Assembly (NCBI GenBank): GCA_000182565.2
Contig: KQ257462.1
Strand: one strand, 5' to 3'
DNA from: Spizellomyces punctatus DAOM BR117
Taxonomy: Eukaryota
DNA: 64,000 bases
Shown here: piece after piece, positions 3,750-36,420 of the stretch
Layout: every line of letters starts with the position of its first letter
Position numbering within the stretch: position 1 is the first letter of the stretch
Notes under the pieces: generated by a model
Told to the model about the DNA's origin: nothing
Databases searched by the model: none
Seen by the model: only the letters and a program-made list of their open reading frames with translations
Translations under genes and position numbers: made by a program

Positions 3750-5247
3750 ATGGCAGATTTTTTCAAACCGTCAAAATCCGGAAGGTCAAAGTCCTCTTCA
3801 AAACCCCGTGAACCTCCAATACGACCATGGATAGAAAAATATCGACCGAAGGACATGAACGACATCAGCTCCCAGGAAGAGGTAGTCGCCGTTCTAAAAA
3901 AGACATTAGAGTCGCAGAACGTGAGTATATATGATACATACTCCAAGATAGTATTCATATTGCTGATTACCTGGCTCTTTATTGCTCTAGCTGCCGCATC
4001 TTCTTTTCTATGGACCACCGGGAACTGGGAAAACTTCTACTATTTTGGCGTTGGCGAGGGAACTGTACGGGTAAGTGGGCGCCTGATGAGACGGTGTGCG
4101 GTACTAAAGGCTAATGTGAACCGGACTGTAAAGTCCAGAACTCATAAAAGACCGAGTTCTTGAACTTAATGCCTCCGATGAGCGCGGTATAGATGTCATC
4201 CGTGCCAAAGTCAAGAACTTTGCGCGAACAACAGTGAGCGGCTCGGCAAAGTATATATCGAGATCTTGGTTGTTGCCACCAGAAAATCTGTCAACTGATG
4301 GATTTTCTATTTAGTGGCTACCCCTCCCCGCCATACAAAATCATTATTCTTGATGAAGCAGATTCCATGACGCAAGACGCTCAATCCGCCCTGCGTAGAA
4401 CAATGGAAACTTATTCGAACATTACCCGATTTTGTCTCATTTGTAATTATATCAGTCGGTACGATATGGCAGTCTGCATCGATTCACAGCCCATGCATGG
4501 TGTCGCTTATCCTGTCTATCACAGTATCATTCAACCCCTGGCCTCCCGATGCGCCAAATTCCGGTTTAAGCCCCTCGATACGACATCCACCAAACAGCGC
4601 ATCGAAGAGATATGTCGCAACGAGAGTGTGAATTGTCCTCCTGAGGTATCAAGTGCATATTCATGTCCTCCTGATATGACCCGCCTAACCTGGTTTTCAT
4701 AGACGGTTGACCATCTTGTTCGAGTCTCGGAAGGCGATATGCGGCGATCCATCATGCTCCTGCAAAGCGCGTACAGATTATATCAGTCAGAACCCATAAC
4801 AAAGGATGCCATGTCTGAGATTGCTGGGGTAAATGCCTGCCTGGTTCAGAATCAAAAGATTGAGGAAATAACGCGGTAAACCGTTTCCTGCTCCTTTTAC
4901 AGGTTGTTCCGGAACCCTTAATTGACAAGCTCATGGCGGTATGGCAGTCTAAAAACATAGCTCATATTGAAAGTACGGTGAACCAAGTCATCAAAGCCGG
5001 GTATTCTGGGGCACAGTTGATGAGTCAGGTTTGTAGTAGTTCTCCTGATGCGGGTGATTGCTGTCAAAGACGGATTTTGACACTCAAATATCTCACGTAG
5101 CTCCACGATCGTGTGATATCAGACGCCCACCTCTCTTCAATTCAGAAATCAAAAATGGCACAGACCCTAGGCCAAGTGGACAAGGCCCTTGGGGACGGCG
5201 CGAGCGAGCATTTACAGTTGTTGAGGCTGCTTGTTGCTGCATATTGA
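3750..5247 (+). CDS. RFC2: Replication factor C small subunit (yeast Rfc2 / human RFC4), multi-exon
   Basis: [25 protein letters not shown] (Walker A), [45 protein letters not shown] and GDMRR motifs; stop TGA 5245-5247. Confidence 0.95.
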
Positions 5248-5461
5248 CCGTTGTTCTTATCATGAACATTTTATCTTGCTATAATGTTAATATATTTCGG
5301 ACAGATTAAAATCAGTAATTTTCCCACTGCGTACAGGTTCCGATCCCATATTTTCCGTTACATATCTACAGGCATGGTTCTTTATTATTAACATAAAAAT
5401 CCGGAGGCGCGACCACGCCGACCATCCAGACCATCCAACCTCCCAGTATACGCACCCAACC

Positions 5462-8400
5462 TCAAGTGGGCACAATCCACTTAATCTCACCGAACAGCAT
5501 CTCATGCAACCGAATTAGGGTCCAATCGAAAATTCCGTAAGGGTGCTGTTCCATCTCGGGGTCGACCCACCATGCTGTGTAGTACATGGTGATAAGGCAC
5601 GCAATAGTCATCATTACCAGAGTTTGGAACCATGTGGTGGTAGCTGGCACTCGCGGTTTCGGTGTTGATGGCACTTGCTTCGGGCGATGACCAATTGACA
5701 ATTCGTCATCGGACCATGTGTCAGCGGGTGTGAAAGAAACCAAGGTTTGAATACTGACGGTTTTGCGCCGGGGTCGTACTGTGGTGGGCTGGGATGTATT
5801 GTGCTTCGATACTTGAAGGGTCAGTTCTGCGATAGTCGCTCGGTATTCAATGATTTGTTTTTTCAGCTCGCTGACACGTTCGGTTAGCTGGACGTTACGA
5901 CCAGTTTGTTTTTGGAGTTCTAGTAGAAAATTTTCAATGGGGAGCTCACTCCCAAACGATGGCGGGAAATCTAGTACCAACCTCTCTGTGCATCCTGTAC
6001 AGTATTCTCCGTTTGCGTCACATCCCGCTTCAGGGCCTGAATCCACCGATCTGCCTCCGCATCGTAATGTTTACGGAAGTTGAGGATGCGCCGTGTTTCC
6101 AGGACCTCGTCTTGCAGGTTTACAATATTTTCCCGAAGTCGGCGCTGTATGAAGTTACGTATTATTACACTGTACTATCACAGAGGCTAGCAATGGTTTC
6201 TTACGTTCTCTGTTTCAACGGATGTCAAAATCTCTGTGAGGCCCCTTAAACGCTCGTCTAATGAAGTTGAAAAAAGTTTTCCTTGTCAGCATGCCGCTGC
6301 ATATGCCTTGGGGTTGAATCGCATCACTAACCATCCAATTCCTCGCGCTCTCTCATCGCCTCCCGGGCTGCAAATTCCCTCTCCACCTGCTTTCTGATCG
6401 CTTTTTCCAACGCTTTAAGTCGAGCGTCCTCATCCGTTTGAACTCCCTTCCCGTAGGTTTCAACCAAGCCAACCCCAGTTTGTATGCCAATATTTTGGCT
6501 ACACACTTCTGGGTCCTCAGTCTGCAACCACTTGTTATGAACAACTGGGACGACCTGCTCCGATTGAACGCCAATTGATGTCTTCACTGCCTCCGCTTGC
6601 ACGACTTTGCTTTGCGTTTCAGTCGTTGCTACTAGACATTGCGTGCCCACTTCGCATTTCGGAACCTCATCGTGCGACCTATCAGTCTGGGTAGATGCTG
6701 AACTGATGTCTGCTGTTGTTTGCAGTCCAACGCTACAGTCCGGGCGTACCGGAAATTGCTCCATGGTTTGCACTTCCTGTTGAAGTCCAGATATCAAGCC
6801 CGAACCCGCCTGTACGGAAACCATACAGTCGGGCCGGATTGCTATCTTTCCTCCTGTTTGCACTCCTTTGTCACATGAGTCGATGATACCTGGACCCGCC
6901 TGTATACCAACGCACGCCTCATGCCGAACCACTTCATCTGTTTGCACACCCTGCACAAGTCGTTGACCCATCCCTGCCCCGAACTGCACCGATTGATCCG
7001 ACTTTGAAATCTCGTCAGTCTGTATTCCCTCGTCAGAATATCCAACACACCCAATGCCCTTCTGTGTGCCAATCGAACATTCCGGTTTCAATGAGACTGC
7101 TCCCTCGGTTTGCGTCGCCTTTGATTGCAACGCTAGCAGAAGAGCAGATTGCGATTGTAGTCCAATGGAACTACGACGTGTTCCATACATTGACGTGAGT
7201 GCCATGCCAATTGTTTGGGTAGCCTTCGCACTGGTCTGAGTTGAAAGCGTGTCAGATTGCACAGCAATTGACTGCGTCGATTTCAGCTGAGGTATATCAA
7301 TCGAAAGGACATGATCCAGTAATGGCGCTGTGGGAGATGTTTGAATTGATGCGTCCGGCGCGTGGGAAGGTTCAGTCTGGGTAGTCATATCTTGCCACTC
7401 CGTAATAACGGGGATCAACGGTAGAAAAGGTCTTTCTTGTAGCATTTCCTCCAGTTCTTCAACTGTGGGTTTGAAAGGGGATCTAGGACGTTTTGATGGC
7501 GACTTGGGCATTTTGGAGGGAGAACTGACTGGAACCCCGGAATTTGGCGAGGCAACTAAGTACGACGATAACGTAAGCTCATCCAGCAGGCATTTGACGA
7601 TGCAAACGTTGAGTTAGCTACTTACGGGTAACTACCATATGCGGCATGTTAATTAGTTTTCCCTTGGACGGCGAAAAAGTTAACGAGTCCATATCCGGAT
7701 CGGGCATCTTTAAGCGCAAGATCTTGCATTAGGCCATGCACACGCAGGGGAAACAATGGACTCAACCCACCACCATAAATCTAGCCTGATGCTTGTATTC
7801 TCTTCGTCGATGGCCCTTGCGGGATTCGTGGGAGGGGTGTGTATTCTGTAAGATATTATCAATGTAACAGTTGGACTAGGTTTTCAGGGACGCCCTCCCT
7901 TACCCCATCCTCCTGACCAGACTCTGAACCATAAGTTGAATCCGAGCACTCCATTTCCTGGTTCAATGGCTACCACCCAGCCATATGATCAGCGCCAGAC
8001 TCTATTTACACCGCCCAATTTGCATACCTTTGAAGTAGATGGCGCTTCACGAAGCATTTCCATGGTTCTCGGTGGGCGTGAACTATTGCCTAGCTCCTCT
8101 AAGTTGGCTTTGAGAGTTTCAATGGTTTCCTTTAACTCCAGATTTTCCTTTCGTAGCTCATTCATCAGATCATCAGCCTTTTCCACATCGCGTTCGAGTC
8201 TTTGTATATCATCCTCTAAACGCCCCTTGTCGTCCAATGTCTATAAAGTCAAATATATAGTGTTAACACAAGTATTCGTTGCCTCCTCCTTCAGATCATA
8301 CCCTTTGTAGGTCGCGTTCGAAATGCTGGAGGTTCGTCTCTGATGTGGCGAGTTCAGATTCCTTCCATTGCAACATATCGGCAAGTTTTTTGTTGGCAGC

Positions 8401-9834
8401 TAATGTAGCAACACCTATCGTTAACCCTTCATATATTGACTTTCCAAAATGAATTGAATACCTGTTTGCTGCTCCAGTTGATGACGCAGGTGCATGCTGT
8501 TGCTTTTTGATGCTGTCAGCTGCTTCTTTAAAGAAACTATCGAAGTTTCAAGCTGGGTAGTGATGTCAAATCAGTACCTCCGATCTCAAGACTCATCTCA
8601 CCGCAAAACTTACAGCTTCCATTTGCAGCAGCAATAACTCCTCTCTGCTCCGCACATCCCCGCACTCTTTCCTCTTGGCTGTAAGTTCGGCCTCCAACTC
8701 ATCCACTTTGCGCTGAAGCTCATGAATCTGATCATCGGCACGCCGATGAGACCTTTCCGACTCGTGAAAACGTCGTGTGATTTCAGAACATCGGCGCTTT
8801 AATGAAGATATTGTCCCGATTTGAGAAGTTATCGTGTCCTATTAATCAAGCAATTAAAGGGCGAGCCACGACCGCTTGTTGGTAATTCCCCAACCTACGT
8901 CGTCGTCTTCCTCACTGAAAGGGCTTCTGGGAGCAGAATGAAATGGGCTCCCATCTACATCAGCTTCAGAATCACTAAACAGATTCTTGCGAGGTGATGA
9001 AGACAAAGAGCTGCTAGTGTCGGAAAAAGTTGCCCTAGGGCTCCAGAACATCTCGGGGGTTCTTACGGCGCCCGCATACACGGAGTATGGCTCGTTAGCA
9101 CCATAGGTACTCATACCGCCGGCTTCAATCACTTCAAAATCTGGGCTATTGGTGTTCGAACGAGACCGAGGGGACGCTGACCCAGGGGTATGTATCTCAA
9201 ATTGGTCAAGATAATTCGGGGATTGTGTGCCTCCGGCTCGCCGAGCCGTTGGGCTGGACGTTGGACTGTGTACTGACCGTCGACGTGCCGCTTTCGCTGC
9301 TCTCTGAGCAGAGGGGAACCGTCCAGGCATGCGCACGGTTGATGGTAATGTTGGTAGTATCTGTCGTGTTGGTGGTGGTGTCGGAGTACGAAGCACTCGT
9401 GGTGGGGGTGATGGTGTCGCCATGGCTGTAGGACGCGCACGCTGAAACAGTCCCAAGAATTCCTCCGCGTCGAAACCTCTGGTCGGATCGCAGGACGCCA
9501 ATTCCTCGCATAGTTGTCGGAGACCAGACCGTTCTTTCACTGTGAAAATCTGAATACGGTGCTCATTCTCCAGATCTTCCACAAGAGGTAGTACGTTTGC
9601 GTATGGGATAAAATCGGAATTTTCGCTGTACCGTGTCCAAAGCTCTTGTGCCCGAAGGAGGAGGTATGCACTCAGAGTTGCTTCTGGCGCCGGCGTCAGG
9701 TTCTGTCAAAACGGAGGTCACTTGAAGACACATTCCAACAATATACAAAGAAAACTCACCAGTTCTGATGAAGCATCCTCTTTCCCAGCGTACGTGTCTT
9801 CAGTACTACCAGTAGACTCTAGCTCGTCCGTCAT
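5462..9834 (-). CDS. Putative KASH-domain outer nuclear membrane protein (EF-hand-like N-terminus, coiled coils, QT-motif array, C-terminal TM and tail ending VPT), multi-exon
   Basis: Minus-strand exons join through GT-AG introns from ATG 9834 (MTDELEST). Heptad-rich exons lie at about 8030-8840, and the QT repeats are in exon 6327-7557. The last exon encodes TM WFQTLVMMTIACLITMYYTAWWV plus a 33-aa tail ending IVPT*. Confidence 0.7.
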
Positions 9835-10561: not shown

Positions 10562-12240
10562 TTAGCGACGATCAGGTGAATCTTCCGACAGTCTACTTGT
10601 CAACATATCTGATGTCAGAGGTTTTGCGACCACAAATTTCTAAACAGCTGCATAAGCAACTCACCGAACCACACCAGCCAATACTGTCACATCATCCATC
10701 TTGCCACCTTGATAGTATAATCCTTCCTGAATAGCGCGTGACTGGAAAGGGCTAGACGAAAATCGTGAATCTTCCGCAATCTCCCTCGCTCGCTTCAAAA
10801 GGGCATCCGTTATGCGCTGGGGATCAACCGATACCGCCTTCTTGTTTTGTGTAACTGAGCGAACAATGTCCACAATGTCTTCATCAAATACATTGTCAAA
10901 CATTCCATCGCTGCCGAGAATGACAATGTCTCCTTCTTCAACTTTTACTCGAAACGTTTGAGCGTCCGCCGGTGAATCGCGGCTCCCCGTACCCAGTTGG
11001 AAGGGGAAATTGAAAGAGTGTTGTTGCTCCTCCGTGCGGAAGATCGGTTCGCTGTCCCGGATGATCAAAACTCCGCAATCACCTAAATTCGCTATTCGTA
11101 ATTCATCATCCTGAAAAAATCGCCAAAAGCATGAGTTATTTCTTTTGCAAGGGCGCTCTACTTTTCAAGCAAACATACCCTTAATATTGCAATGATCGCC
11201 GTGGTCGACCCTAGCAAATTCTCTGCCTTTGCATCGAGGTTGGTATGATCATAGCTCTTCTGCAAGATATCCCTCGGATCTACATTGTTATAGTCCTCAA
11301 TGGTATAATCTGAATTCACAATGTCATCCAACTTCTCCAGCTCTGCGCTGGCATAGTGCATAATCTTTCGAGAATACAATGCTGGGTTTGCCCCTAAAAG
11401 CATGGAAAGTTAGACGGGTCAAATTTCTAATTATTTCCCCATCGTATTTCTTACCCTTCACTTGCGCCCAACCTCCGACCCCGTCTGCCACCCCTAGAGA
11501 ATCCGGACGAACAAAATACGCATCTTCTCCAACTTGGACCGATAGAAACTCCCCCGAGTCGTTTGAACACGGCCGACTCGCTCTCTTTGGCATTGCGGAC
11601 GCGGCATGTGCAAATCGAAATGTCCGACGAGTAGTTGGTATAGCCTACAGTGCGCGAGCATTAAAAAAAAAAATGGCTACTCCAAACGCTCCTGCACCAG
11701 TTTTCTGCTGGCCCATACCTTTTCAAACAGTTCAAAAATGCTCGGGCTTTCTCTCCGTTTGAACCAGTTTAGAGTATCTGGCTGAGATGCCACGGCCGGC
11801 ATAGACATGTGCCTTATGTGCTGGTGCTTGGTATAAGCCAAGTGCAGTTGCTCTGCCCCGGCGGTGTGCACCCCACAGCGAGGGGCATAGGTAGCGCAAG
11901 CGGCGGCATAGTTGAAGTTTGACGCTTCAGTGAATAGTCTATACGCTCTACGAGGCCCTTCACTGTGACTTTTCTTTCCACCTGGCGGACTTGGTGGGCG
12001 GACTATAGGGTCTGTGCATGGTTCTTGGAATGGTGGGATAAAGGCGATACGATATGGAGGGAGTGTGGGCTTGGCTGTCGAGAGGGTGTGATTGGGGAGG
12101 GGAGACTTTTCTATTGATGGTGAGGAGAATCGTCCTGAGGACACATAGAGAGGGGTCCGGACAATGTTCCGCACATAGCGGGATACTGTTTGAGCAACGA
12201 TGCGCACCGCTGAGAATGGGTTCCCTCGTGCATACAGCAT
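10562..12240 (-). CDS. PTC7: PP2C-family phosphatase PTC7/PPTC7-like with long N-terminal extension, multi-exon
   Basis: GEDAYF, LGVADGVGGW, GSTTA, ANLGDCG, EEQQHSFNFPFQLG, GSDGMFDN and GGKMDDVTV motifs; last exon LSEDSPDRR*. The start at 12240 is inferred. Confidence 0.9.
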
Positions 12241-15603: not shown

Positions 15604-18600
15604 CTAAAAATAATCTACCCCGCTAACCCCTTCCAATAAATCATCCAAGATCCTCTCCGAAACAGATCCAATCCCCTTCGCCAACTCCTTCTGCTGACTG
15701 ACTGATAAACAAGCGTACTGATAAAGCAGCTCGCCATCCAGTACCAGCCGTGGTCCTGGAGGACCTGTCATTGGGGTCGCGGTTGCGGCTGTTGTAGGGC
15801 GGGATTGAAGGGGCACTTGACTGCATGTAATAGGATATTAGAAGAAATGACGAATTTGAGAATTTGAAGTTACAAATATCATACCGGAACCCGCGCGGAT
15901 TGAGGCCAGCGGGGTGCTGCAGATTGTTCACCATTTTCGAGTAAAGCCCATACAGACGTTTGTATAGCTTCTCGGAAACAGGTAACAGCAATGCAAGACC
16001 ACCTTCCAGGGTACCTTTTAACCAGACCAAGAATCAGTGGCAGTACGTCATAATAGATCAATCTCGCCGCACTCACCAGTTAAACAAACTTGTTGCCGAG
16101 GTATCGTATTCGACCCTTTACGAGAAGATGACATGCGCTGCAAGCGGACAATCTTGCTGACATGTTGTCCAGCATGGAAATCGCCTCTACGAATCAATTT
16201 TTGTCCGCTAGATGATTGTATATCTGTTCAACGGACGTAAGCAAGTGAATCTACAAGCACGTACAACCAAGCAGTCAACGAGGGACGCTACATACGATAT
16301 GGAGAATATGTCATAACATGCACATTTGATTCCCCATCGCCAACAATAAAGGCAAGGGACGAGTCGTCGACCATGAATTCGCAGCCATATACATTGAGGG
16401 AGTGATAATCCTTTCCCAATAGCGCGAGCTTTGGGGGCTCCTCCTATGATGTAGACAAAAATCTTGGTTAAAATGATCGAATTGCCTGTTAACATATCAA
16501 ACTGATTTGCGCACCTGGAATCCCAAGAACCACACGCTCTTCATGATATCCCCAACCAGAATGAGATTTTTTATAGCGCAAACGCTATTGACATACATGT
16601 TGACGTCAATGAATGCCACACCAGTCAGGCTTTCCGAATCGTCGAATGTGTGAATAATGATCTAAAACCAACGTAAAGGAAATGGAAGGTTACTTATGTC
16701 AGTCATGTATTAACCTACCGCCTTGCTCGGCCTTCATTCCTTCCCAATATGTTCTCTGTGCAACTATAGGTGAACGACCATCATCAAAAGGCACCGTCCC
16801 CTATCTTCCACAGTAGTTGATCTTCCAACCAACTTAGAGGATAACAGCCATCGAAAAACATAGTTTCCCGTTTCGGATTGGGTATCTTCCCCGTATCTAC
16901 GCTCCTCCATATGCAAATCATCGGTGAACATACCTTCGTGCCAATCGCCGCAAGCAAATATCCTCCAACATTACAAAGGGCTGTCACCGGACCCTTTTCT
17001 TCGTTTACAAATAATTGTTTAAAACGATGGTTGGTTTGAGGGTTGTCAGGTTCGGGAACGATGTCAATAATATCGTAAATGAATATCTAGGCGTTTCACA
17101 AACGTTCATCTTCGATTCTACCATCAGACAAACTGCAAGTACTGAACTCACCCTTCCTCGCGTCGCCAAGTCCTCCCCACGCACAGTTCCTGTGCCGACA
17201 GCGATGAATAATTTACGTCCAGAAGTGGTTTGCTTGCTTTCCAGTTCAATAGCTTGGATGGCAAGGATGTGCTCGTATTCGTCCATTGTGACTCTGGAAA
17301 TAGGAGCGGCTCTGTTACGTCCGTGCCCAGCGAATAGTATCCAAAAAAGGCGACTTACACGTCCACTGTTTCCCAAGTTACAGGAGAGACCAGTTCCATG
17401 CTGTACGAGCTGACCTGCGGCCAATACATCCCCGCATCTACCCCCATGAATGAGATTATTCGAAAAATCATCCATCAATTTCCATTAGTAACTATAAACA
17501 TACCTCTATCTTCATCCTTGACGCCGAAATTCCTCTTCGTATGCTCAGACTCTGGTAACTCATCACCGGCTTCGATAACACCAGCAGCCACCGCGGCAGC
17601 ATGCTGCGCCTTGGACAAAACAAAGGGAACCGGTACTGATGTCGCCATGACATAGGTCTGCGACGTGTGGTGATAGGTAAGTTTCTGTGGTGTTCGACGG
17701 AGAGGAACTTTGCAGTAGGGCCAGTCGGCATCGTATGTAAAATGGGCAGGGAGTTGACAGATGCGCATGGAGCCCTAGATCAAATATATTGGTTGACTAT
17801 GTCGAATACACTCAAAAGACAAACGTCAAAGACGCGGCGCTCGAAAACTTACCTGTCGAGTAACATATAAAAATCCATGTGGAACATTCACATTGTGTAA
17901 TCTCGTGAACCCAACCACCTCCCCATCCACCATCTGGGGATGAACTCTCACCACATTTTTGCCAGAAACAGCCATGGGCGGTTCAAGAACTGCTTGCAAA
18001 CCCTGCACAACGTCAAACTGCGGCCCCACTCCGCCAGTCTCGGCAACCATAATCCAACATGGTCTTGGCCCGGACATGAAGACGCCAGAATACATCAAAC
18101 TCCCTTCTAGTCCAATTTTGTTGAAAGGTTTCAGATACCGTCTTCGGCGGGTGGACGACTTCTCGGGGTATTGATGTACAGGGTGGAGTTTGTCGCCTTC
18201 AGTGTCGGCATAAAGTTTGGGTTCCCGCGATATATGATCGTGCGAGACACGGACGAAACGGATGGCCAGTCGGTGGGATCGGGAACTGTACAGGACGTCT
18301 CGGGAGTGTGTATTTGATGGGTTAGGGGTAGCAAGCGCATTGCCTAAGGCAGTGGCAGGAGTTTCGATATCATCATCCGGAATGTGAAGGAATGCTTTAT
18401 AGATGATAAGATCGGATTCTTCTGTTCGGCTCTGCCACAGATACAAGCCAATTAGCCATACTTAAGGTAAAGTATTCCAAGCAAATTCCTTACAATAAAG
18501 TATGGATGTTTATGTTTCTTATCTCTTCCTAGATTAATCATCAAAATCTCCTCGAATTTGACGGCAGGTCGTCGACTTTGTCCATTGCCGTGTGGATCGA

Positions 18601-23394: not shown

Positions 23395-24822
23395 CTATTC
23401 CTCTTCCTCCAACAAAAACGAGCTGGCCTGGGGGTATCCACAACCTCTAAATTCCCACTCTTCACCACTTCCAGTTTTGACGACGCTTCTGACCACTTTG
23501 GCAGCCTTCAGATACGCACCACTCTTTTCACCATAAAGGTCTTCAAACATTTTCAAAGCGGCACAAGCCTCCATGACATGGACATCATCGTCCAAATGAG
23601 CGGGAGCGCCACAGAGGGCGTGCCATTCGCGGGCCATGAGGGCAGGAGTAGAAGGCAACGTCGGGGATCCGACGGGCGGAGAAGTAGAGAGCGGTTCCAT
23701 GTCCATAGAGTCAAAGTAGGCGGTTTCGAGGCGGTCTGGGTGGAGGTTTGGGCGACCTTGGGAGACGTAGAGAGCTAATAAGACGAGGAGGAATCTGCGG
23801 AGAAGGTGAATTTGATCTTTTTGGGTCGGGAGGAAGGCGAGGGTGGTATGAAGGTATTTACAGGCGATAAGACCTTGCATTAGGGGAAAGTCGAGTTGTT
23901 GAGGAAATACATGCCCAGTTGTGACGGCAACCAACACAACAGCGTTGGTGAGCTCTTCAAGAGCTGCACGAATAGAGTGCTCGTTTTCCTCAATTTTCCA
24001 TTCAGAGACGAGTTCGGCAAGGTCTTGGCCCAATTTGCTGCCGACGGCCTTGCGGACTCGTTTGTGAAACTCTAGTTGACCCCAGTGGGGATGAATCTGT
24101 TCGGGGTCAAAGCGAACATCTTCACGGGCGTCCTGGAGGATTTCGAGAACATTTGCCGTGTCGTCGTCGTCAACGGTTGGGGGGAGAGAGTCGATGATGG
24201 GTGTGTAGGTGTAGGCCCAGTAGGCGAGACCTTGAGCAATGACAAAAGGGTGTTGGAATTCGAGACCGAGGCCGAGGTGGACAAGAGGGTGGAAACAGTC
24301 ATTGCCGAGACCGCGAACAAGAGTGGGGAGATAGGTGGCGATGGTAGGTTTGATTCCGTTGGTTTCGATTTCCGTCAGAAAGAATTGGGTGTACGCAGTG
24401 TAATGGGTCTGTCCTTTGCCGAGATATTCGGTCCAATTGTCCGCCGTGATTTTGACAGTGACCGGACCAGCCGGGTCAAGCATTTTGGATTCGAGGTCGT
24501 AGCGCTCCTTCATGACCGTCTCGCTCGCTAGTGATCGTAATTATGAGTCATTGTCCACACAGACATTGAACTAAGAGTAAGTCATTGCCTTACCATTGAT
24601 TTTGTAAAAGCTCAACAAGGCATGCACAGCATAGTTGGGCTGGTACTCTTTGGTATGACGGTTCAAGACCTCGACATGGTGACTGGCAAAATCCTTGGCC
24701 AGAAGCTGCTCAACAACGTTCCAGCGCTCCCTGTCGGCCTCCACATTGAACGCAGGCACAATGCGGAGGTGAGACGGGACAGCAAGCGTGGCGCCGTTGT
24801 TGGGGAGAGTTGTCACAGGCAT
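23395..24822 (-). CDS. DUF4243 / questin oxidase (AflY/HypA-like) family protein, 2 exons
   Basis: ITADNWTEYLGK, FFLTEI, FHPLVHLGLGLEFQHPFVIAQGLA, LDFPLMQ, LYVSQGRP and DDVH motifs; ATG 24822. Confidence 0.8.
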
Positions 24823-26726: not shown

Positions 26727-28402
26727 TCATATCATCCTCATCGCGGGTGCACACTCACGATCACTGCTCATCAACATATTCCGGACCTCTCTCAACCTTT
26801 TACATTCGATCTCATACGCATCCACCAGAGTCTGAAATCTCTGGACCTCGGTCGTCTCAGAGTGGGTCACAATCTCGGCGGGATTGAGCGCCAAATTACC
26901 AGAGTCAAGAATGTACGAGCAAAAGAGGGCGAGGAGTTGGAGAGGGCTGGAGCTGTTGCTGGACTGGGGAGGTTGGTTCTCTTGAGAGGGTGATGCAGCG
27001 TCGGATGAGACTTGCGAGAGAGAGGTTGTGGAAGTGGTAGAGTACGTGCTCTCATCATCAGAGTCTGATAGATCCGAATCGGACGTGTCCGCGGTAGAGC
27101 TACACTCTACTTCATCCTCCTCAACTTGGTCGTCTTCTTGACCGTTGTCATACGGGGACTCGTCCTCGTCCTCCTCGATCTGGTAGCGATTGCCGGTAGT
27201 GCGAATCACACCGCGACTTTGGCGCACAGTTGCGGGCAAGCTTTTCACCACGGCCCGGCCGGACCGTTCATTGACCGATATACGGAACGTTGGGATATCA
27301 ATTGCATCGTTAGTGGTGGTAGTGGGAGTACCCGATGAGGTCGTTGACGCTACACTGCCAGACCGGATGCGTAAGGCAGCAAGTTTTGTTTCATAGTCCT
27401 TTAGAGTTCGTGTCAGTCAGTATGAGCTGTAAAATGGAACATTTTTAAATGGACTCAATCATCACCTTGAATCCTTTTGCGTGCGGGTTGTAGTTCTTTT
27501 TTAGACTATTCACCTTCTCGCTCTGGTAATGCGTTACGGCGATAAACTTTGTTTCTTCAAACAAGTACGTCGTAACGGACTGTCCTTCAGCAGAGTGCTT
27601 AATAAGATGCACGCGGGGTTGGTACTGGTGGAATGAATTGAGATAAAAGTAGCCCTCCGGGACGGAAGGATAGTCAGGTGAGGAGCCCGGAGAAGGGGAA
27701 CGTAATGAAGACGGGCATCGATTGGTAAGCTTGATTTTGGCAAAGGATATGCCCTGTTGTATCCAGAAGGCGCCAGACTGGGTAGCACTCGAGTGCAAAA
27801 TTGCTCTGCAGGTTGGGACGAGCATATCCTCCGACTCGCCTCCGCTTCCGGCATCGAGGGACACCGGCGCCCAATGACCGTTTTTGAATTTGAATTTGTG
27901 CGGTACGGTTTGCACGATATCGATTGCAATGGAATAGAGGGCTTGAGGATCAAGGCATATGGGCCGGAACCGGAGCGTCGGGAAGAGACAGCGACCGCCT
28001 TTGGTGATGATCATTTCTGATAATGAAATATAAACAAAACACGTAAACGCGGCTGTCGATCTAGGACGAAATGAATCAACTAGACGCACCGTTTCCAACC
28101 GAATGAAACTGCGCCCAAAGTTTGGCATCCTCCAACAATATTGTCGGACCATTGGCATTTCTCATCGTTGATTCTTGTCGAGACCCATGTGGTGACAATG
28201 AAGGCGGAACAGTAAGAGTTCTCATTCCTCCTTGCCGCAGCGGACGCCGCTCAACTTGTTGATCGTTTCCGGATTGCGAGGACATGAGATTGTTGGAAAG
28301 CCGCCGGGTTTTGGCCTTGATGAGGTACGAGCTTTCATGCGAGTCGTCATCATCGGATTTTCGCTTTGGTACGGCGGTATGGGACGACGCTGTTGTGTGC
28401 AT
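26727..28402 (-). CDS. T-box transcription factor (Brachyury-like), 3 exons
   Basis: LEDAKLWAQFHSVGN|EMIITKGGRCLFP (intron 28017-28089), SGAFWIQQGISFAKIKLTNR, LNSFHQYQPRVHL, FEETKFIAVTHYQ and NPHAKGFK|D; acidic, Ser-rich C-terminus. Start codon uncertain. Confidence 0.92.
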
Positions 28403-30633: not shown

Positions 30634-33029
30634 CTACAGAGCATCAGGAATGGGTCTATTCAACATATCCAATACGTCACGTACACTCGCTTCGTAGCCA
30701 CCCTTTGTGACAAGTGCAACGTAGGCACTCTCGAGTCCCGCTGATGTCGCTATGCGATTAGTATCTTTCATCCATCGAATCACCGTCGGCAACAACTCGA
30801 CACGGCCCGTCTTGATGAGAGTATCGATGAGCTTGGTGGTAGATATCGGTGTGAATATGTATCGACGAGGGGGAGGTGTGATATCTTGGGTAGGTGAGGG
30901 AGAGGTGGTTAAAGGTTTTTGCGTCGCAGCGTCTATGACCGCCTTTTCTCGGGCAGCCTCTATTGCACCGCTGTGTTCGGCGGTATCACTTTTGAGTTGT
31001 TCTGCTGTGTCGCTCCACTCGCCCGTGTCTGCATTTGCGTGTCGCACCACGATTTCATCGGTCGCTTCATGCTCGTTAACGTCGAATGCTGGGGCGGTCG
31101 GCAGTTGAACAGCCAGAGACGAGGTAGGCACGGGAGACAAAAGAACCTCAAGTCGCCCGGTCCGCGCGGCGGCCTCCATCACAGCCTTCAGGGCCATCCT
31201 GGGAGGATTCCGCATTTGGCGCAACGTCTCCCACACCGCAAACCCATCATCCCATCTCTCCAGTCCAAAATAAATCATCATCGCCCATGTGCGCGCCAAG
31301 GGCAGTTCTTGTCGATGCTTTTCCGTCATATCATTGTATATTGTCGTACCCGAAAGAAAGTTGCCTGTTTCGGACGCTAACTGAAGGACCGATGATTTGA
31401 CTGTGGCCAAAGGTTCGACCTTCAATAGTCGCATCTCCTCGTACAATGTATACGCATTAGCCCAGTCCTTTTGCGAGCAATATGCTTTTATCGCGGCATT
31501 GTACGCATTGGCAGATATCACCAGAGAATGCTCTTTCATCTGGTGAATAACGCCCGTTAAAGTGTCCAGGGAGCTGCCATCACGACCAGCGCTATAGGCG
31601 ACAATCAGCAAGTTTAATAGATTACTCGACTCTGACGGAGGAAGATCCCGAACGAAATGTGTCCGCAGCTGTGTGAGTTCATCGAAACGTTTCGCCTTGA
31701 TTAACGCCTTGACAAGCGGGTGATATGCTTCCATTGTGGGCGTCTTTAGAGACCAACGCATCAATTTGTCGATAAGCAATGCCGCGTCAAGATGACCGTC
31801 CATGCATAGGCGGGCAGCCAGTCCGTTTGCATCGGCCATTCCGGGCAGCAAGTACTTTTCAATTAATCTCTTGCCACCATTGAGGGCTTCTTGGGCGTCT
31901 TTCGCTTGTGCCATGCCGATCACCAAAGCCCCCAAGAGGTCCCCCACCTCTTGATCTTTGTACAGAGAGCGGTAGAGGACAAATTCGAGCTCCTTCCATT
32001 TTCCTCGCTTGGCCAAAGGCGGTATCAGAGCCAAGGAGACACTCATTGTTAACGCAGAGCGCTTTTCGATGATTTTTTTGGCATAAGACAGTGCATTTTC
32101 TACCTCTGAAGTTTGGGCCAGAGCTGTGGCGATCGTTGCGTACACTGTGACACTCATGTCGACTCCCGCGTGCTTCATATCGCGGAACATACGCATCATG
32201 AGTGCTGGCTTTTTTGCTGTTGCAAAAGCCCGTATCAGCCCTTCATATGTGTCGGCATCAAGACTGGTGCCTTCGCGCCAGATTCGGTTATACAACTCTA
32301 AAGCTTGAGCAGTATATCCCTTCTTAATGAGACTACACAAAACGACCTTGTACACCTCTTTCTCTAGTTTCATCCCGGTAAATGTGATCTCCCCCATCAG
32401 CGCACGCACACTTCCAGGATTAGAGGTCTTTGCCATACCCATTACAAGATTAGAAAGAACTACGGCATTAGGCGTGATCCCATCAACTTCCATATCGCTC
32501 AAAACTCCTCGGTACTCTGGAGGTATTGCTCCTTTGGTCAGAGCAGCAGATATAATCTCATATTCTTTCAAACTAGGCGGACGCCGCATTTCGCGAGCAT
32601 TTTGGAGAACGATTCGCAATTTTTCCAAGATAGATTTGGGATCTTGATTGGAATTCGTCAAGATCTTGAGTAATTGCAGTGTCACCTTGCGGTTGATACT
32701 TCCTCGCTGCTGTCTATCTTGATAGAGGGCCTGATAGGCGTCCCAGCATGCTCTGGATTCCGCTGTTGCACGGCCTCAACAAAGTCATTCCAAACCGATC
32801 TGCTCGCAATTGGAGGTTTCAAAGTAGGCTTTGGGTTGGAAAACGATTCTCGGGACGGGGTGCGTTTGTTTTGCTTGTCATTTTGGGAAATAGAGCTATA
32901 TCTGCATGTCGAGGTTGGTGAAACGCAGAGAGGAGCAGGAGTCGAGCAGCTGCGGGAAGTTCTTGTCAAAGAAAGAATCAAGCGCCTGGGAGGGAGGTGA
33001 AACAAGGCCGAGGACAATCGCCTTTGCAT
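30634..33029 (-). CDS. Pentatricopeptide-repeat (PPR) protein, likely mitochondrial, 2 exons
   Basis: 35-aa repeats such as TYEGLIRAFATAKKPALMMRMFRDMKHAGVDMS and AYNAAIKAYCSQKDWANAYTLYEEMRLLKVEP; Arg/Ser/Leu-rich N-terminus MQRRLSSALFHLPPRRL. Confidence 0.88.
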
Positions 33030-36200: not shown

Positions 36201-36420
36201 CAGCAAAACGCGAAACGTGCGAATGGGGCTACTGGCAATACGGCGAAAAAGAGTGTTTTGGACGCTGTGATGGAAGCACAAGAGGATGCTAAAAAGAGCA
36301 GGGTGAAGTTTATATCTCGTACATTTTATTCTTCATGTGCTTGATACTTATCCGTTGTTTTATTGTTGTTTTTAGGCGAATATGTGGCGGTATGGGGATT
36401 TCACAGAGGACGATGAATAA
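33205..36420 (+). CDS. SND1: Tudor staphylococcal nuclease (Tudor-SN/p100), multi-exon
   Basis: Four SN repeats (VKNIISGDSIVLRG, FAFESREYLR, EAKYFVESRLLQRD, DDNRSSQYDQL), Tudor CSAQFGADDQWYRARV...YVDYGNSE, and C-terminus NMWRYGDFTEDDE*. Confidence 0.96.

What the first reader, a model, noticed from the sequence alone, without database searches (positions are those of the whole stretch)
5462..9834. Candidate fungal KASH5/Kms-like dynein-adaptor LINC component
Seen: the spliced product has an EF-hand-pair-like N-terminus (ELWTRYSENSDFIPYANVLPLVEDL...ELASCDPTRGFDAEEFLGLF), an SP-rich disordered linker, long coiled coils (...ENLELKETIETLKANLEEL), the QT array, one C-terminal TM and a 33-aa tail ending IVPT. 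Known: KASH proteins are tail-anchored with a short luminal tail ending in a Pro-X motif that binds SUN; KASH5 uses an EF-hand pair plus coiled coil to activate dynein; fungal KASH proteins are poorly conserved and often unannotated. Inference: a nucleus-to-centrosome/dynein linker, and the EF-hand + LC8 array + KASH combination is not one I recognise as described.
Basis: partly seen in the sequence, partly recalled or inferred. Interest (0 to 1): 0.8.

Follow-up and report, generated by a model that had tools for sequence, protein, structure and literature searches.

The report
Chytrid tail-anchored EF-hand, QT-repeat, KASH-like protein
This is a real 13-exon gene of the chytrid fungus Spizellomyces punctatus whose protein looks built to tie a membrane, most likely the nuclear envelope, to the microtubule machinery, but neither its location nor its partners have been tested.

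Summary
Window 9834..5462 (minus strand) is the CDS of Spizellomyces punctatus SPPG_09406 (1208 aa): 13 exons and 12 GT-AG introns of 57-74 nt. A 3'-biased RNA run shows minus-strand reads and a poly(A) end near 5351.

- **N-terminal domain:** residues 26-115 model confidently (pLDDT 84) as a four-helix EF-hand-pair-like fold. EF-hand proteins are the best PDB matches, at middling strength.
- **QT array:** residues 636-949 hold 14 [TVIL]QT motifs against about 1.2 expected, with a 14-residue period.
- **C-terminus:** one hydrophobic segment, then a 33-aa tail ending IVPT.

Only three relatives were found, all in Spizellomycetales. All four proteins keep the terminal membrane segment and a penultimate proline (IVPT, NPV, VPV, VPV). 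The two Geranomyces proteins keep the EF-like domain but lack the QT array.

Best reading (about 0.45): an order-restricted KASH-like outer-nuclear-membrane adaptor, analogous to KASH5, with an LC8-type multivalent array. It is not a sequence member of Pfam KASH (0 of 4 tails). SUN, LC8 and dynein binding could not be tested because no partner sequences were obtainable.

The parts
5462..9834 (-). Complete CDS of SPPG_09406 (1208 aa). Exons: 9834-9760, 9702-8899, 8838-8614, 8552-8462, 8399-8302, 8240-8028, 7969-7904, 7845-7771, 7707-7626, 7555-6332, 6257-6205, 6144-5982, 5919-5462.
   Evidence: Exact spliced mapping of P0001 onto the window, with 12 GT..AG introns of 57-74 nt. Identity to the NCBI protein.
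9433..9702 (-). N-terminal EF-hand-pair-like domain (residues 26-115), with degenerate loops.
   Evidence: AF2 pLDDT 84.1, four helices. EF-hand proteins top Foldseek (E >= 0.18, probability up to 0.97), VIA (Z up to 8.5, 75-87 aligned) and the wide VIA search. The only part significantly similar to the Geranomyces proteins (E 8.5e-6 and 5.5e-5 library-wide; pairwise 2e-12). No canonical Ca2+ loop by a pattern recalled from memory (0 of 4 proteins).
8899..9432 (-). Ser/Pro/Arg-rich linker (residues 116-293). It lies in the same exon and open frame as the EF-like domain and holds the conserved stretch VRMPGR[FW]P.A..AA.
   Evidence: Sequence. Invariant columns against the ortholog.
8028..8838 (-). 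First coiled-coil block (residues 294-502, exons 3-6).
   Evidence: Pro-free charged and Leu-rich stretches at 315-372 and 388-482. Only sub-threshold coiled-coil Pfam matches. Best-conserved block against the ortholog.
7913..7942 (-). Short motif DSTYGSESGQ (residues 512-521), identical in the Thoreauomyces ortholog. Function unknown.
   Evidence: Alignment A1.
6432..7394 (-). QT array (residues about 631-951): 12 [TVI]QT, 2 LQT and 7 [TVI]Q[SAV] anchors, with a 14-residue period in its second half. Candidate multivalent LC8 site.
   Evidence: Motif counts and shuffles. Lag-14 periodicity in both orthologs. 7 aromatic residues in 335. No DNA-level tandem repeat.
5852..6449 (-). Second coiled-coil block (residues 946-1079, exons 10-13).
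   Evidence: sequence.
5744..5761 (-). Juxtamembrane TVSIQT (residues 1110-1115), conserved as TVAVQT in the ortholog.
5564..5632 (-). Single C-terminal transmembrane segment (residues 1153-1175).
   Evidence: Best Kyte-Doolittle window of the protein (1.59). The equivalent segment is the best window in all 4 family members (1.59-2.44). The preceding 20 residues carry net +2 to +4 and the tails 0 to -4.
5465..5563 (-). 33-aa tail DPEMEQHPYGIFDWTLIRLHEMLFGEIKWIVPT (residues 1176-1208), KASH-like. The stop codon is at 5462-5464.
   Evidence: Penultimate Pro in 4 of 4 relatives. Fits the TMD + 9-40 aa + XXPT rule of PMC4050730.
5351..5461 (-). 3' UTR up to a poly(A) addition site near 5351.
   Evidence: Run X9: depth 58-70 over 5300-5611 with all first mates on the minus strand. 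8 reads carry a loose poly-T lying before 5351 on the + strand.

Best explanation
SPPG_09406 encodes a tail-anchored coiled-coil adaptor. Its single C-terminal helix inserts into the ER/outer nuclear membrane with the bulk of the protein in the cytoplasm.

Inferred: the short luminal tail, ending in a free phi-V-P-T carboxy-terminus, is captured by a SUN-domain protein. That would make it the KASH partner of a chytrid LINC complex.

On the cytoplasmic side, the degenerate (probably non-calcium) EF-hand pair at the N-terminus is the partner-binding head. By analogy with KASH5, CRACR2a, FIP3 and ninein, the most likely partner is helix 1 of the dynein light intermediate chain (inferred).

Between the two coiled-coil blocks lies a low-aromatic stretch with about 21 Q-centred motifs spaced about 14 residues apart. 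Inferred: LC8 dimers zip this stretch, one dimer bridging the same motif on two parallel chains. This would turn a floppy spacer into a stiff rod, as shown for Nup159 and KANK1.

The net function would be a nucleus-to-microtubule/centrosome linker.

Shown here: the gene structure, transcription of its 3' end, the predicted EF-hand-like fold, the non-random motif array, and conservation of head + coiled coil + TM + Pro-X end within Spizellomycetales. Not shown: nuclear-envelope location and SUN, LC8 or dynein binding.
For: 1. **One gene, transcribed.** The annotated 1208-aa protein maps exactly with 12 canonical short introns. Minus-strand 3' reads and a poly(A) end were seen.
2. **EF-hand-pair-like head.** pLDDT is 84.1. 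EF-hand chains lead three structure comparisons, and the CRACR2a-LIC complex 6psd is among them at Foldseek rank 23. The Atlas feature search also returned EF-hand clusters, at lead-level scores of 0.76-0.79.
3. **Family-wide architecture.** An HMMER scan of 1.84 billion representatives with the head found 3 proteins at E <= 0.001: the query's own and two Geranomyces proteins. Both have head, then a long coiled coil, then one C-terminal TM, then a 16-20-aa tail ending AFVPV.
4. **Ortholog.** The Thoreauomyces ortholog is collinear from the linker to the tail and ends RVNPV.
5. **Conserved end.** The penultimate Pro is kept in 4 of 4 while the rest of the tail is unalignable between genera.
6. 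**Orientation.** Positive-inside charge asymmetry fits an N-cytoplasmic, C-luminal orientation.
7. **KASH criteria.** The tail meets the published operational KASH criteria and the plant phi-VPT ending (passages of PMC4050730 and PMC3265956). The former paper also notes that lineage-restricted KASH families, such as Kms1/2, are the rule.
8. **QT array.** 14 [TVIL]QT against 1.2 expected. 6 of the 12 [TVI]QT anchors have D or E at +2, and only 1 has a pre-anchor Pro. This matches the LC8 rules in PMC6607443 (passages). Uniform short spacing recalls the Nup159 and KANK1 rods (passages of PMC12803091).
9. **Precedents.** KASH5 is an EF-hand dynein-activating adaptor (PMC10071310). Fission-yeast KASH Kms1 binds a dynein light chain directly (PMC3575533).
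Against: - No tail matches Pfam KASH (0 of 4 at E <= 10).
- There is no PPPX, and the last residue is T in only 1 of 4.
- The conservation argument rests on 4 proteins from 3 genera of a single order.
- Fold matches are of middling strength (Foldseek E >= 0.18; best Z 8.5). The tool itself warns that this range can reflect a common helical arrangement.
- Pfam EF-hand models do not hit the head (0 families at E <= 1). A profile of the head finds nothing in PDB sequences.
- In S. punctatus about 180 disordered residues separate the head from the coiled coil, unlike known activating adaptors.
- The array is absent in Geranomyces. Only 1 of 24 anchors is canonical in Thoreauomyces, so LC8 binding cannot be the family's core function.
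- Hydrophobicity of the S. punctatus TM is modest (1.59).
- No junction-spanning reads were obtained.
- Whether the array is disordered was not modelled.
Confidence: 0.45

Rival explanations
1. A tail-anchored coiled-coil tether of another membrane, such as ER, Golgi (golgin-like) or another organelle. It would have no SUN partner. The conserved Pro-X end would be incidental or read by something else, and the EF-like head would bind an unrelated partner.
For: Tail-anchored coiled-coil proteins are common and nothing here localises this one. Pfam KASH is not hit (0 of 4). Tail sequences and lengths differ between genera (16-37 aa depending on where the TM is ended). Only 4 family members exist. 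An earlier scan report (e1-645886) judged a comparable tail-anchored coiled-coil protein of Naegleria not to be KASH.
Against: The very C-terminus is the one tail feature kept across genera: Pro at the penultimate position in 4 of 4, and V-P-[TV] in 3 of 4. That is what a carboxy-terminus-reading receptor such as SUN would impose. The tail length falls within the 9-40 aa KASH range, and IVPT equals a proven SUN-binding ending in plants (passages of PMC4050730 and PMC3265956).
Confidence: 0.3
2. The membrane-adaptor reading holds, but the QT array is not an LC8 platform. It would be a lineage-specific spacer or repeat with a 14/28-residue unit, binding another partner, forming its own beta-rich structure, or simply setting length.
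For: The ortholog keeps the 14-residue Q period: lag 14 is the top lag in both. Its anchors, however, are mostly [SA]QT[DE] or [TVI]Q[SA], and only 1 of 24 is [TVI]QT. The Geranomyces proteins replace the region with coiled coil. PMC6607443 (abstract) stresses that many TQT peptides do not bind LC8.
Against: The S. punctatus motifs fit the LC8 rules well, for example SKATQTE, SDEGIQTD, YGKGVQTD and QDMTTQTE (passages of PMC6607443). Aromatic content is about 2% (7 of 335), which argues against a folded core. KANK1 shows that 15 or more individually weak, non-canonical sites with short uniform linkers can bind LC8 cooperatively (passages of PMC12803091).
Confidence: 0.3
3. Gene-model artefact: the EF-hand exon, the array and the TM exon come from two or more neighbouring genes wrongly fused by the annotation.
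For: No junction-spanning RNA reads were obtained; the run is 3'-biased and the gene body has a depth of 0-0.7.
Against: Twelve introns of uniform size (57-74 nt), all GT..AG, keep one frame open from ATG to stop. The head and the linker share one exon. The ortholog is collinear from linker to tail. The Geranomyces proteins independently join the same head to a C-terminal TM and tail.
Confidence: 0.04

Closest known systems
KASH5 / CCDC155 (vertebrate meiotic LINC component, dynein-activating adaptor)
   Same: The order of parts matches: an N-terminal EF-hand pair lacking consensus calcium ligands, an extended coiled coil, a spacer, a single C-terminal TM, and a short luminal tail whose last residues include Pro (passages of PMC10071310). 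The Geranomyces relatives match even more closely, with the head followed almost directly by the coiled coil.
   Different: No sequence relationship could be shown. The tail ends IVPT, NPV or VPV rather than PPPX. Pfam KASH is not hit. About 180 disordered residues lie between the head and the coiled coil. The protein has a roughly 320-residue QT array and a second coiled coil. LIC binding was not tested.
Plant KASH proteins WIP1-3 and SINE1-5
   Same: They are tail-anchored, with a short luminal tail ending phi-VPT or XXPT that is required for SUN binding and envelope localisation (passages of PMC3265956 and PMC4050730). S. punctatus ends W-I-V-P-T. They are lineage-restricted families defined by the tail rule rather than by homology.
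   Different: The cytoplasmic domains are unrelated. Plant tails are 9-16 aa, against 33 here. Three of the four chytrid proteins end PV, not PT.
Fission-yeast KASH proteins Kms1/Kms2
   Same: These are fungal coiled-coil tail-anchored LINC components with no close homologues outside their lineage (passage of PMC4050730). Kms1 binds a dynein light chain directly and helps organise microtubule-organising centres at the envelope (passages of PMC3575533).
   Different: The Kms1 partner is the Tctex-type Dlc1, not LC8. No EF-hand head or QT array is recalled for Kms1/2. No Kms sequence was available here for comparison.
Multivalent LC8 clients: Nup159, ASCIZ, KANK1
   Same: They carry clustered TQT-type anchors in low-complexity sequence flanked by dimerising elements. 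Nup159 and KANK1 have short, regular linkers and form LC8-stacked rods (passages of PMC5963919 and PMC12803091).
   Different: The candidate site number here (14 xQT, about 21 with weaker anchors) exceeds Nup159 (5) and human ASCIZ (11). It is at or above KANK1 (15 or more). The host protein is a membrane-anchored KASH-like adaptor. Binding is untested.
EF-hand dynein-activating adaptors (CRACR2a, Rab45, FIP3, ninein)
   Same: An N-terminal EF-hand pair is followed by a long coiled coil and a C-terminal cargo anchor (passages of PMC10071310 and PMC10886578). 6psd, the CRACR2a-LIC complex, is among the Foldseek matches (rank 23).
   Different: The model resembles CRACR2a no more than it resembles calmodulin or troponin C. 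The anchor here is a transmembrane helix. No Spindly motif or LIC contact was tested.

Membership tests
KASH domain, operational definition of Zhou et al. 2014 (PMC4050730) | The tail lies immediately C-terminal of a transmembrane domain and is the protein's C-terminus. | tested here: met
   The best hydrophobic window is the last one in 4 of 4 proteins, followed only by the tail.
KASH domain, operational definition of Zhou et al. 2014 (PMC4050730) | Tail length is 9-40 aa. | tested here: met
   33 aa in S. punctatus. 16-37 aa in the three relatives, depending on where the TM is ended.
KASH domain, operational definition of Zhou et al. 2014 (PMC4050730) | The terminal four residues fit a KASH pattern: plants XXPT; animals PPPX or [PATHQL]PP[QTVFILM]. 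| tested here: inconclusive
   IVPT fits XXPT and phi-VPT. The relatives end VNPV, FVPV and FVPV, which fit neither published pattern although the penultimate Pro is kept in 4 of 4.
KASH domain, operational definition of Zhou et al. 2014 (PMC4050730) | The putative KASH tail is present in most members of the protein family. | tested here: met
   TM plus a short tail plus a Pro-X end occurs in 4 of 4 known members. These represent only 3 genera.
KASH proteins (functional definition) | SUN-dependent localisation to the outer nuclear membrane, with direct binding of the tail to the SUN trimer. | not testable with these tools
   No genome is held for this window. No SUN domain was seen in the 53 window ORFs scanned. 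No SUN sequence could therefore be handed to complex prediction.
Pfam KASH (PF10541) | A match to the family HMM. | tested here: not met
   0 of 4 C-terminal fragments gave any KASH hit at E <= 10.
KASH5 / CCDC155 | Sequence homology to KASH5. | not testable with these tools
   No KASH5 sequence was available. HMMER with the head found only Spizellomycetales proteins at E <= 0.001. A profile against PDB sequences found nothing.
KASH5 / CCDC155 | [quoted passage not shown] | tested here: met
   The predicted fold is EF-hand-pair-like. No canonical loop was found by a pattern recalled from memory. Coiled-coil-type stretches follow. This is a predicted structure, and the matches are of middling strength.
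KASH5 / CCDC155 | A PPPX-type KASH tail. | tested here: not met
   The tails end IVPT, VNPV, FVPV and FVPV.
EF-hand dynein-activating adaptors | Binding of dynein LIC helix 1 by the EF-hand pair; activation of dynein-dynactin motility. | not testable with these tools
   No LIC sequence of this organism was obtainable.
EF-hand superfamily (Pfam EF-hand models) | A match to EF-hand HMMs, or a canonical 12-residue loop. | tested here: not met
   0 Pfam families at E <= 1 on the 268-aa exon. 0 loop-pattern matches in 4 proteins (pattern recalled). The fold-level resemblance stands.
Multivalent LC8 (DYNLL) clients | Several 8-residue motifs with a TQT-type anchor and favourable flanks. | tested here: met
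   12 [TVI]QT plus 2 LQT in residues 636-949. 6 of the 12 have D or E at +2, and 1 of the 12 has a pre-anchor Pro. Enrichment over shuffles. Rules from passages of PMC6607443.
Multivalent LC8 (DYNLL) clients | The motifs lie in an intrinsically disordered region. | tested here: inconclusive
   The composition is disorder-like: 7 aromatic residues in 335, rich in Q, S, T and G. The structure prediction of the region could not be run.
Multivalent LC8 (DYNLL) clients | Direct binding of LC8 dimers. | not testable with these tools
   No LC8 sequence of this organism was obtainable.

The most novel reading that the evidence does not exclude
The protein is the missing molecular tether that holds the chytrid nucleus to its centriolar centrosome or kinetosome. 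It would be a Spizellomycetales-specific KASH-type protein whose 20-odd LC8 sites assemble a rigid rod tens of nanometres long between the outer nuclear membrane and the basal body or its microtubule root, with the EF-hand head engaging dynein or a centrosomal partner.

This would give a molecular basis for two things. [quoted passage not shown] The other is the physical connection between nucleus and basal body inferred during S. punctatus cellularization (passages of PMC11974727, which holds no mention of KASH, LINC or dynein).

It would also mean that the EF-hand-plus-KASH dynein-adaptor design of vertebrate KASH5 either dates back to early opisthokonts or arose twice.
Probability: 0.12. 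Interest if true: 0.8.

Novelty: new variant of a known kind. Interest (0 to 1): 0.6.

Why it matters
KASH partners of LINC complexes are notoriously unrecognisable by sequence outside animals. My searches found no paper describing one in a chytrid. 'Spizellomyces' + 'KASH' gave 6 papers, none on the topic by title or abstract start. 'KASH' + 'chytrid' + 'LINC complex' gave 2 centrosome reviews.

Chytrids keep centrioles, cilia and dynein, which most fungi have lost. S. punctatus is genetically transformable (title and abstract listing of PMC7213984 and PMC10267658). A recent preprint infers an unexplained physical nucleus-centrosome link in this very species. This gene is a concrete, testable candidate for that link.

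If the EF-hand head binds dynein LIC, the KASH5-type adaptor design would no longer be known only from vertebrates (that KASH5 is known only from vertebrates is my recollection, not checked here). If the array binds LC8, it would be among the highest-valency LC8 clients known. It would also be the first on a nuclear-envelope adaptor, since 'LC8' + 'TQT' + 'KASH' found only one general dynein review.

If none of this holds, it remains an order-restricted tail-anchored coiled-coil protein of modest interest.

Tried and rejected
- **Pfam on exon translations**. There was nothing above threshold. The coiled-coil exons gave only sub-cutoff coiled-coil families, including KASH_CCD at E 0.013 and 16 bits against a cutoff of 43.3. 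I treat that as coiled-coil noise.
- **PDB sequence searches.** I used the 134-aa N-terminus and the 3-sequence profile A2. Both gave 0 hits at E <= 10.
- **Homologue searches.** The N-terminal exon with 'longer' lengths found only the protein itself. The whole protein at near lengths found itself plus one ortholog. Profile A2 with 'longer' lengths found the same 3 proteins. These are word-index searches with length limits, so absence elsewhere is weak evidence.
- **Metagenome scans.** I ran two, with A2 and with A1. Of 268 and 596 pattern matches, none was confirmed by tblastn.
- **ESM Atlas.** The head gave EF-hand clusters at 0.76-0.79, which is lead level only. The C-terminal 109 residues gave no usable hit.
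- **Own-genome search for SUN (PF07738).** No genome is held for this window.
- **Pfam on window ORFs.** I scanned 53 of the window's 79 stop-to-stop ORFs of at least 130 aa. The 26 left out were the finding's own ORFs and ORFs overlapping another on the list. No SUN, LC8 or LIC domain was seen.
- **Sequencing runs.** No RNA holder was listed by the index. Laying run X9 (raw RNA reads, same species label) gave 451 reads, almost all at the 3' end, with no joints listed. Splice junctions were therefore neither confirmed nor contradicted. X3 and X4 are low-depth contigs of unrecorded type that match the genomic sequence. X1 gave two 151-nt contigs within exon 2.
- **DNA tandem-repeat search over the gene.** Only two trivial rows appeared, so the protein repeat is not a recent DNA duplication.
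- **Earlier scan findings.** There was nothing for this place, this sequence or the combined words. One unrelated Naegleria report came up under 'KASH'.
- **Considered and rejected.**
  - Bacterial or viral origin: short spliceosomal introns and an NCBI chytrid protein rule it out.
  - The minus-strand ORFs being chance: they splice into one annotated protein.
  - A calcium-sensor role for the head: the loops lack consensus ligands, though this rests on a recalled pattern.

Full report
**What is there**

The window is from the chytrid fungus Spizellomyces punctatus DAOM BR117. The translated N-terminal exon (window:8899-9702:-) is 100% identical to the NCBI 'uncharacterized protein SPPG_09406', 1208 aa (P0001). 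A script mapped P0001 letter for letter onto the minus strand. The ATG is at 9834 and the stop at 5464-5462. There are 13 exons and 12 introns, all GT..AG and all 57-74 nt. The finding's coordinates are therefore exactly the CDS.

Neighbouring genes are separate. A PP2C/SpoIIE-like ORF lies upstream at 10664-11164(-). A plus-strand gene converges on the 3' end.

No whole genome is held for this window.

**Transcription**

The run index listed no RNA holder. Raw reads of an RNA run with the same species label (X9) were then laid, and 451 reads fell on the stretch. All first mates lie on the minus strand, with depth 58-70 over 5300-5611 and 0-0.7 over the gene body. Eight reads carry a loose poly-T lying before 5351 on the + strand. 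This fits a 3'-tag library reading a minus-strand mRNA polyadenylated about 110 nt after the stop.

No joints were listed, so the reads do not test the splicing. The single-transcript model rests on four things:
- the public annotation;
- the twelve uniform canonical introns that keep one frame open;
- the EF-like head and the linker sharing one exon;
- collinearity with relatives.

**The head**

Residues 26-115 have no Pfam match (0 families at E <= 1) and no PDB sequence match. With a three-sequence alignment (A2), AlphaFold2 gave mean pLDDT 84.1 and pTM 0.72. The model has four helices (6-25, 34-48, 55-71, 79-87 in model numbering) and short bridges in both inter-helix loops.

The structure comparisons agree on the fold:
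- Foldseek against the PDB found no match at E <= 0.001. Every row shown is an EF-hand-type domain, with best E 0.18, probability up to 0.97 and TM up to 0.64 on the target. The CRACR2a-dynein LIC peptide complex 6psd is at rank 23.
- VIA re-alignment gave Z up to 8.5 (rmsd 2.5 Å, 75 aligned). All 50 rows are calmodulin-, centrin-, troponin C- or myosin-light-chain-type lobes.
- The Foldseek-independent wide search again put EF-hand chains on top, with best Z 8.3 and 87 aligned.

The tool warns that Z of this size is middling for helical models. I therefore take 'EF-hand-pair-like fold' as well supported but not proven.

A canonical calcium loop was not found in any of the four family proteins by a pattern I wrote from memory. 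The loop residues also differ between genera. This is the situation described for KASH5, FIP3 and ninein (passages of PMC10071310).

**The family**

An HMMER scan of 1.84 billion representatives with the head found three proteins at E <= 0.001. One is the query's own. The others are P0003 (8.5e-6) and P0004 (5.5e-5). They are hypothetical proteins of Geranomyces variabilis (711 aa) and G. michiganensis (906 aa).

A word-index search with the whole protein added one ortholog, Thoreauomyces humboldtii HKX48_001105 (P0002). It is 1125 aa, 33% identical over 54% of the query, and sits on a 5.3-kb contig. Its model begins at the position of P0001 residue 119, so the head may simply be cut off.

A profile search and two metagenome scans added nothing.

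Spizellomyces and Geranomyces belong to the order Spizellomycetales (Geranomyces: passage of PMC6492006; order lineage). That Thoreauomyces also does, and how the genera fall into its two families, is my recollection and was not looked up. Absence elsewhere is weak evidence, given the limits of these searches.

**What the family keeps**

The two Geranomyces proteins have the same head, a roughly 20-residue Pro-rich hinge, and several hundred residues of coiled-coil-type sequence. They then have one C-terminal hydrophobic segment and a 16-20-residue tail ending AFVPV.

Thoreauomyces keeps the linker, both coiled-coil blocks, a Q-rich array, the TM and a 35-37-residue tail ending RVNPV.

Between S. 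punctatus and Geranomyces only the head is significantly similar (pairwise E 2e-12; everything else is at coiled-coil noise level).

Across all four proteins:
- The last hydrophobic segment is the best Kyte-Doolittle window of the protein (1.59-2.44).
- The 20 residues before it carry net +2 to +4, and the tail carries 0 to -4.
- The penultimate residue is proline (IVPT, NPV, VPV, VPV).

The rest of the tail does not align between genera. A constraint on the extreme C-terminus of a short luminal tail is the signature of SUN-KASH recognition. It is not what one expects of an ordinary tail anchor.

**Is it a KASH protein?**

Zhou et al. 2014 define a putative KASH domain by three rules. It sits directly after a TMD, it is 9-40 aa long, and it is the protein's C-terminus ending in a set four-residue pattern. 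The pattern is XXPT for plants and PPPX or [PATHQL]PP[QTVFILM] for animals. Presence across the protein family adds confidence (passages of PMC4050730).

S. punctatus meets all of these, and W-I-V-P-T equals the phi-VPT ending of the plant WIP proteins (passage of PMC3265956).

The three relatives end in PV. V is allowed at the last position of the animal pattern, but these tails lack the preceding PP, so they fit neither published pattern.

No tail hits Pfam KASH (0 of 4). The same is true of plant KASH proteins, which share 'little to no sequence similarity' with opisthokont KASH domains (passage of PMC4050730). That paper also notes that Kms1 and Kms2 have no close homologues outside their lineage. 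An order-restricted KASH family would therefore be normal.

The defining property, SUN-dependent envelope localisation, could not be addressed. No SUN sequence of this organism could be obtained.

**The QT array**

Residues 636-949 hold 12 [TVI]QT, 2 LQT and 7 [TVI]Q[SAV] motifs. In residues 621-955 there are 14 [TVIL]QT. Composition-preserving shuffles gave a mean of 1.2 and a maximum of 6 in 2000.

From Q781 to Q949 the anchors follow each other at 14, 14, 16, 14, 16, 11... 14, 14, 14 residues. Lag 14 is the top Q-Q lag, with 11 pairs in 740-955. At that lag the shuffles gave a mean of 2.6 and a maximum of 8; over all lags the shuffle maximum was 10.

There is no DNA-level tandem repeat, so the repeat is old. 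The region has 7 aromatic residues in 335 and is rich in Q, T, S, V and G.

The LC8 rules in Jespersen et al. 2019 are: an eight-residue motif; a TQT-type anchor with mid-sized residues at -1 and +1; D, E or P favoured at +2; an H-bonding residue at -4; a positive residue at -3; and pre-anchor prolines disfavoured (passages of PMC6607443). Many sites fit these rules, including QSKATQTE, SAKATQTI, SDEGIQTD, YGKGVQTD, CDKGVQTG and QDMTTQTE. Six of the 12 [TVI]QT anchors have D or E at +2, and one has a pre-anchor proline.

For comparison, known clients have 5 sites (Nup159), 3 (Chica, Bassoon), 7 and 11 (fly and human ASCIZ; passages of PMC5963919), and at least 15 (KANK1). In KANK1, weak non-canonical sites with short uniform linkers cooperate to form a rod that spans 35-50 nm (passages of PMC12803091).

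A 14-residue period means an 8-residue motif plus a 6-residue linker. The array is flanked by two coiled-coil blocks that would hold two chains in register. That is the design expected for an LC8-stiffened rod.

Evidence against this reading:
- The same paper stresses that many TQT peptides do not bind LC8.
- The Thoreauomyces ortholog keeps the 14-residue period (lag 14 is top, with 12 pairs), but only 1 of its 24 anchors is [TVI]QT. The rest are [SA]QT[DE]-like or [TVI]Q[SA].
- The Geranomyces proteins have no array at all.

LC8 binding, if real, is a feature of the Spizellomyces/Thoreauomyces lineage laid onto an older adaptor. Whether the array is disordered could not be modelled.

**Mechanism proposed**

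- **Shown:** one transcribed gene; an EF-hand-pair-like head (predicted); coiled-coil-type blocks; a non-random Q-centred array; a single terminal hydrophobic segment with positive-inside flanks; and a conserved Pro-X end.
- **Inferred:** the protein is tail-anchored in the ER/outer nuclear membrane. Its tail is held by SUN. It dimerises through its coiled coils. LC8 dimers ladder the array into a rod. The head recruits a cytoskeletal partner, most likely dynein through LIC helix 1, as in KASH5, CRACR2a, FIP3 and ninein (passages of PMC10071310 and PMC10886578).

A fungal precedent for a KASH protein binding a dynein light chain directly is Kms1-Dlc1, although Dlc1 is Tctex-type (passages of PMC3575533).

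I put the full KASH-like adaptor reading at about 0.45. My estimates for the parts are:

| Part of the reading | Estimate |
|---|---|
| EF-hand-like fold | ~0.85 |
| Tail-anchored membrane protein | ~0.85 |
| LC8 multivalency | ~0.5 |
| SUN binding | ~0.45 |
| Dynein-LIC binding | ~0.35 |

**Rivals**

- A tail-anchored tether of another membrane (0.3).
- An array that serves something other than LC8 (0.3; compatible with the adaptor reading).
- A fused gene model (0.04).

**Comparison and novelty**

It works like KASH5 by architecture. It is not a member of that family: the PPPX tail and Pfam KASH were tested and not met, and homology could not be tested. Its ending is that of plant KASH proteins. 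Its array resembles Nup159, ASCIZ and KANK1.

I found no description of this combination:
- 'LC8' + 'TQT' + 'KASH' gave one general dynein review.
- 'Spizellomyces' + 'KASH' gave six papers, none on the topic by title or abstract start.
- 'KASH' + 'chytrid' + 'LINC complex' gave two centrosome reviews.

Supplements were not consulted, and subscription journals are outside the library.

I rate it a new variant of a known kind.

**Why it could matter**

[quoted passage not shown] It holds no mention of KASH, LINC or dynein (passages of PMC11974727).

S. punctatus can be transformed (listing of PMC7213984 and PMC10267658). The localisation and tail-deletion tests are therefore feasible.

Noticed in passing
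window 7913-7942 (-), P0001 residues 512-521: The ten-residue motif DSTYGSESGQ, just after the first coiled-coil block, is identical in the Thoreauomyces ortholog while its flanks diverge. It may be a short linear motif, such as a phospho-regulated site. No function was assigned.
   Followed up: no
window 9217-9261 (-), P0001 residues 148-161: The stretch VRMPGR[FW]P.A..AA, inside the Ser/Pro-rich linker, is conserved between S. punctatus and Thoreauomyces. It is unexplained.
   Followed up: no
window 27448-28161 (-): This ORF has a strong T-box DNA-binding domain (Pfam T-box, E 7.6e-43). It is a T-box transcription factor gene in a fungus.
   Followed up: no
window 34063-36341 (+): These ORFs carry staphylococcal-nuclease repeats followed by a Tudor domain (SNase E 2.1e-47; TUDOR E 9.8e-22). 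The gene is Tudor-SN-like.
   Followed up: no
window 10664-11164 (-) and 4238-4699 (+): These are the immediate neighbours of the finding gene. Upstream is a PP2C/SpoIIE-type phosphatase ORF. Downstream, a plus-strand ORF converges on the 3' end. Its translation reads like a clamp-loader (RFC small subunit) by eye, but this is a recalled resemblance with no Pfam hit at 1e-5.
   Followed up: partly
window 30637-32775 (-), 23398-24540 (-), 49140-49664 (+), 15644-17484 (-): Other domain-bearing ORFs in the window: a PPR-repeat protein, a Questin_oxidase-like protein, a Rap/Ran-GAP fragment and CPSF_A-region pieces.
   Followed up: no
window 8400-8461 (-), intron 4: An alternative acceptor 18 nt upstream of the annotated one (AG at 8419-8418) would also keep the frame. 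It would replace one residue with seven (…EQQTGVATLAANKK… instead of …EQQTAANKK…). I saw this by eye in the sequence. The annotated form is the one that maps.
   Followed up: partly
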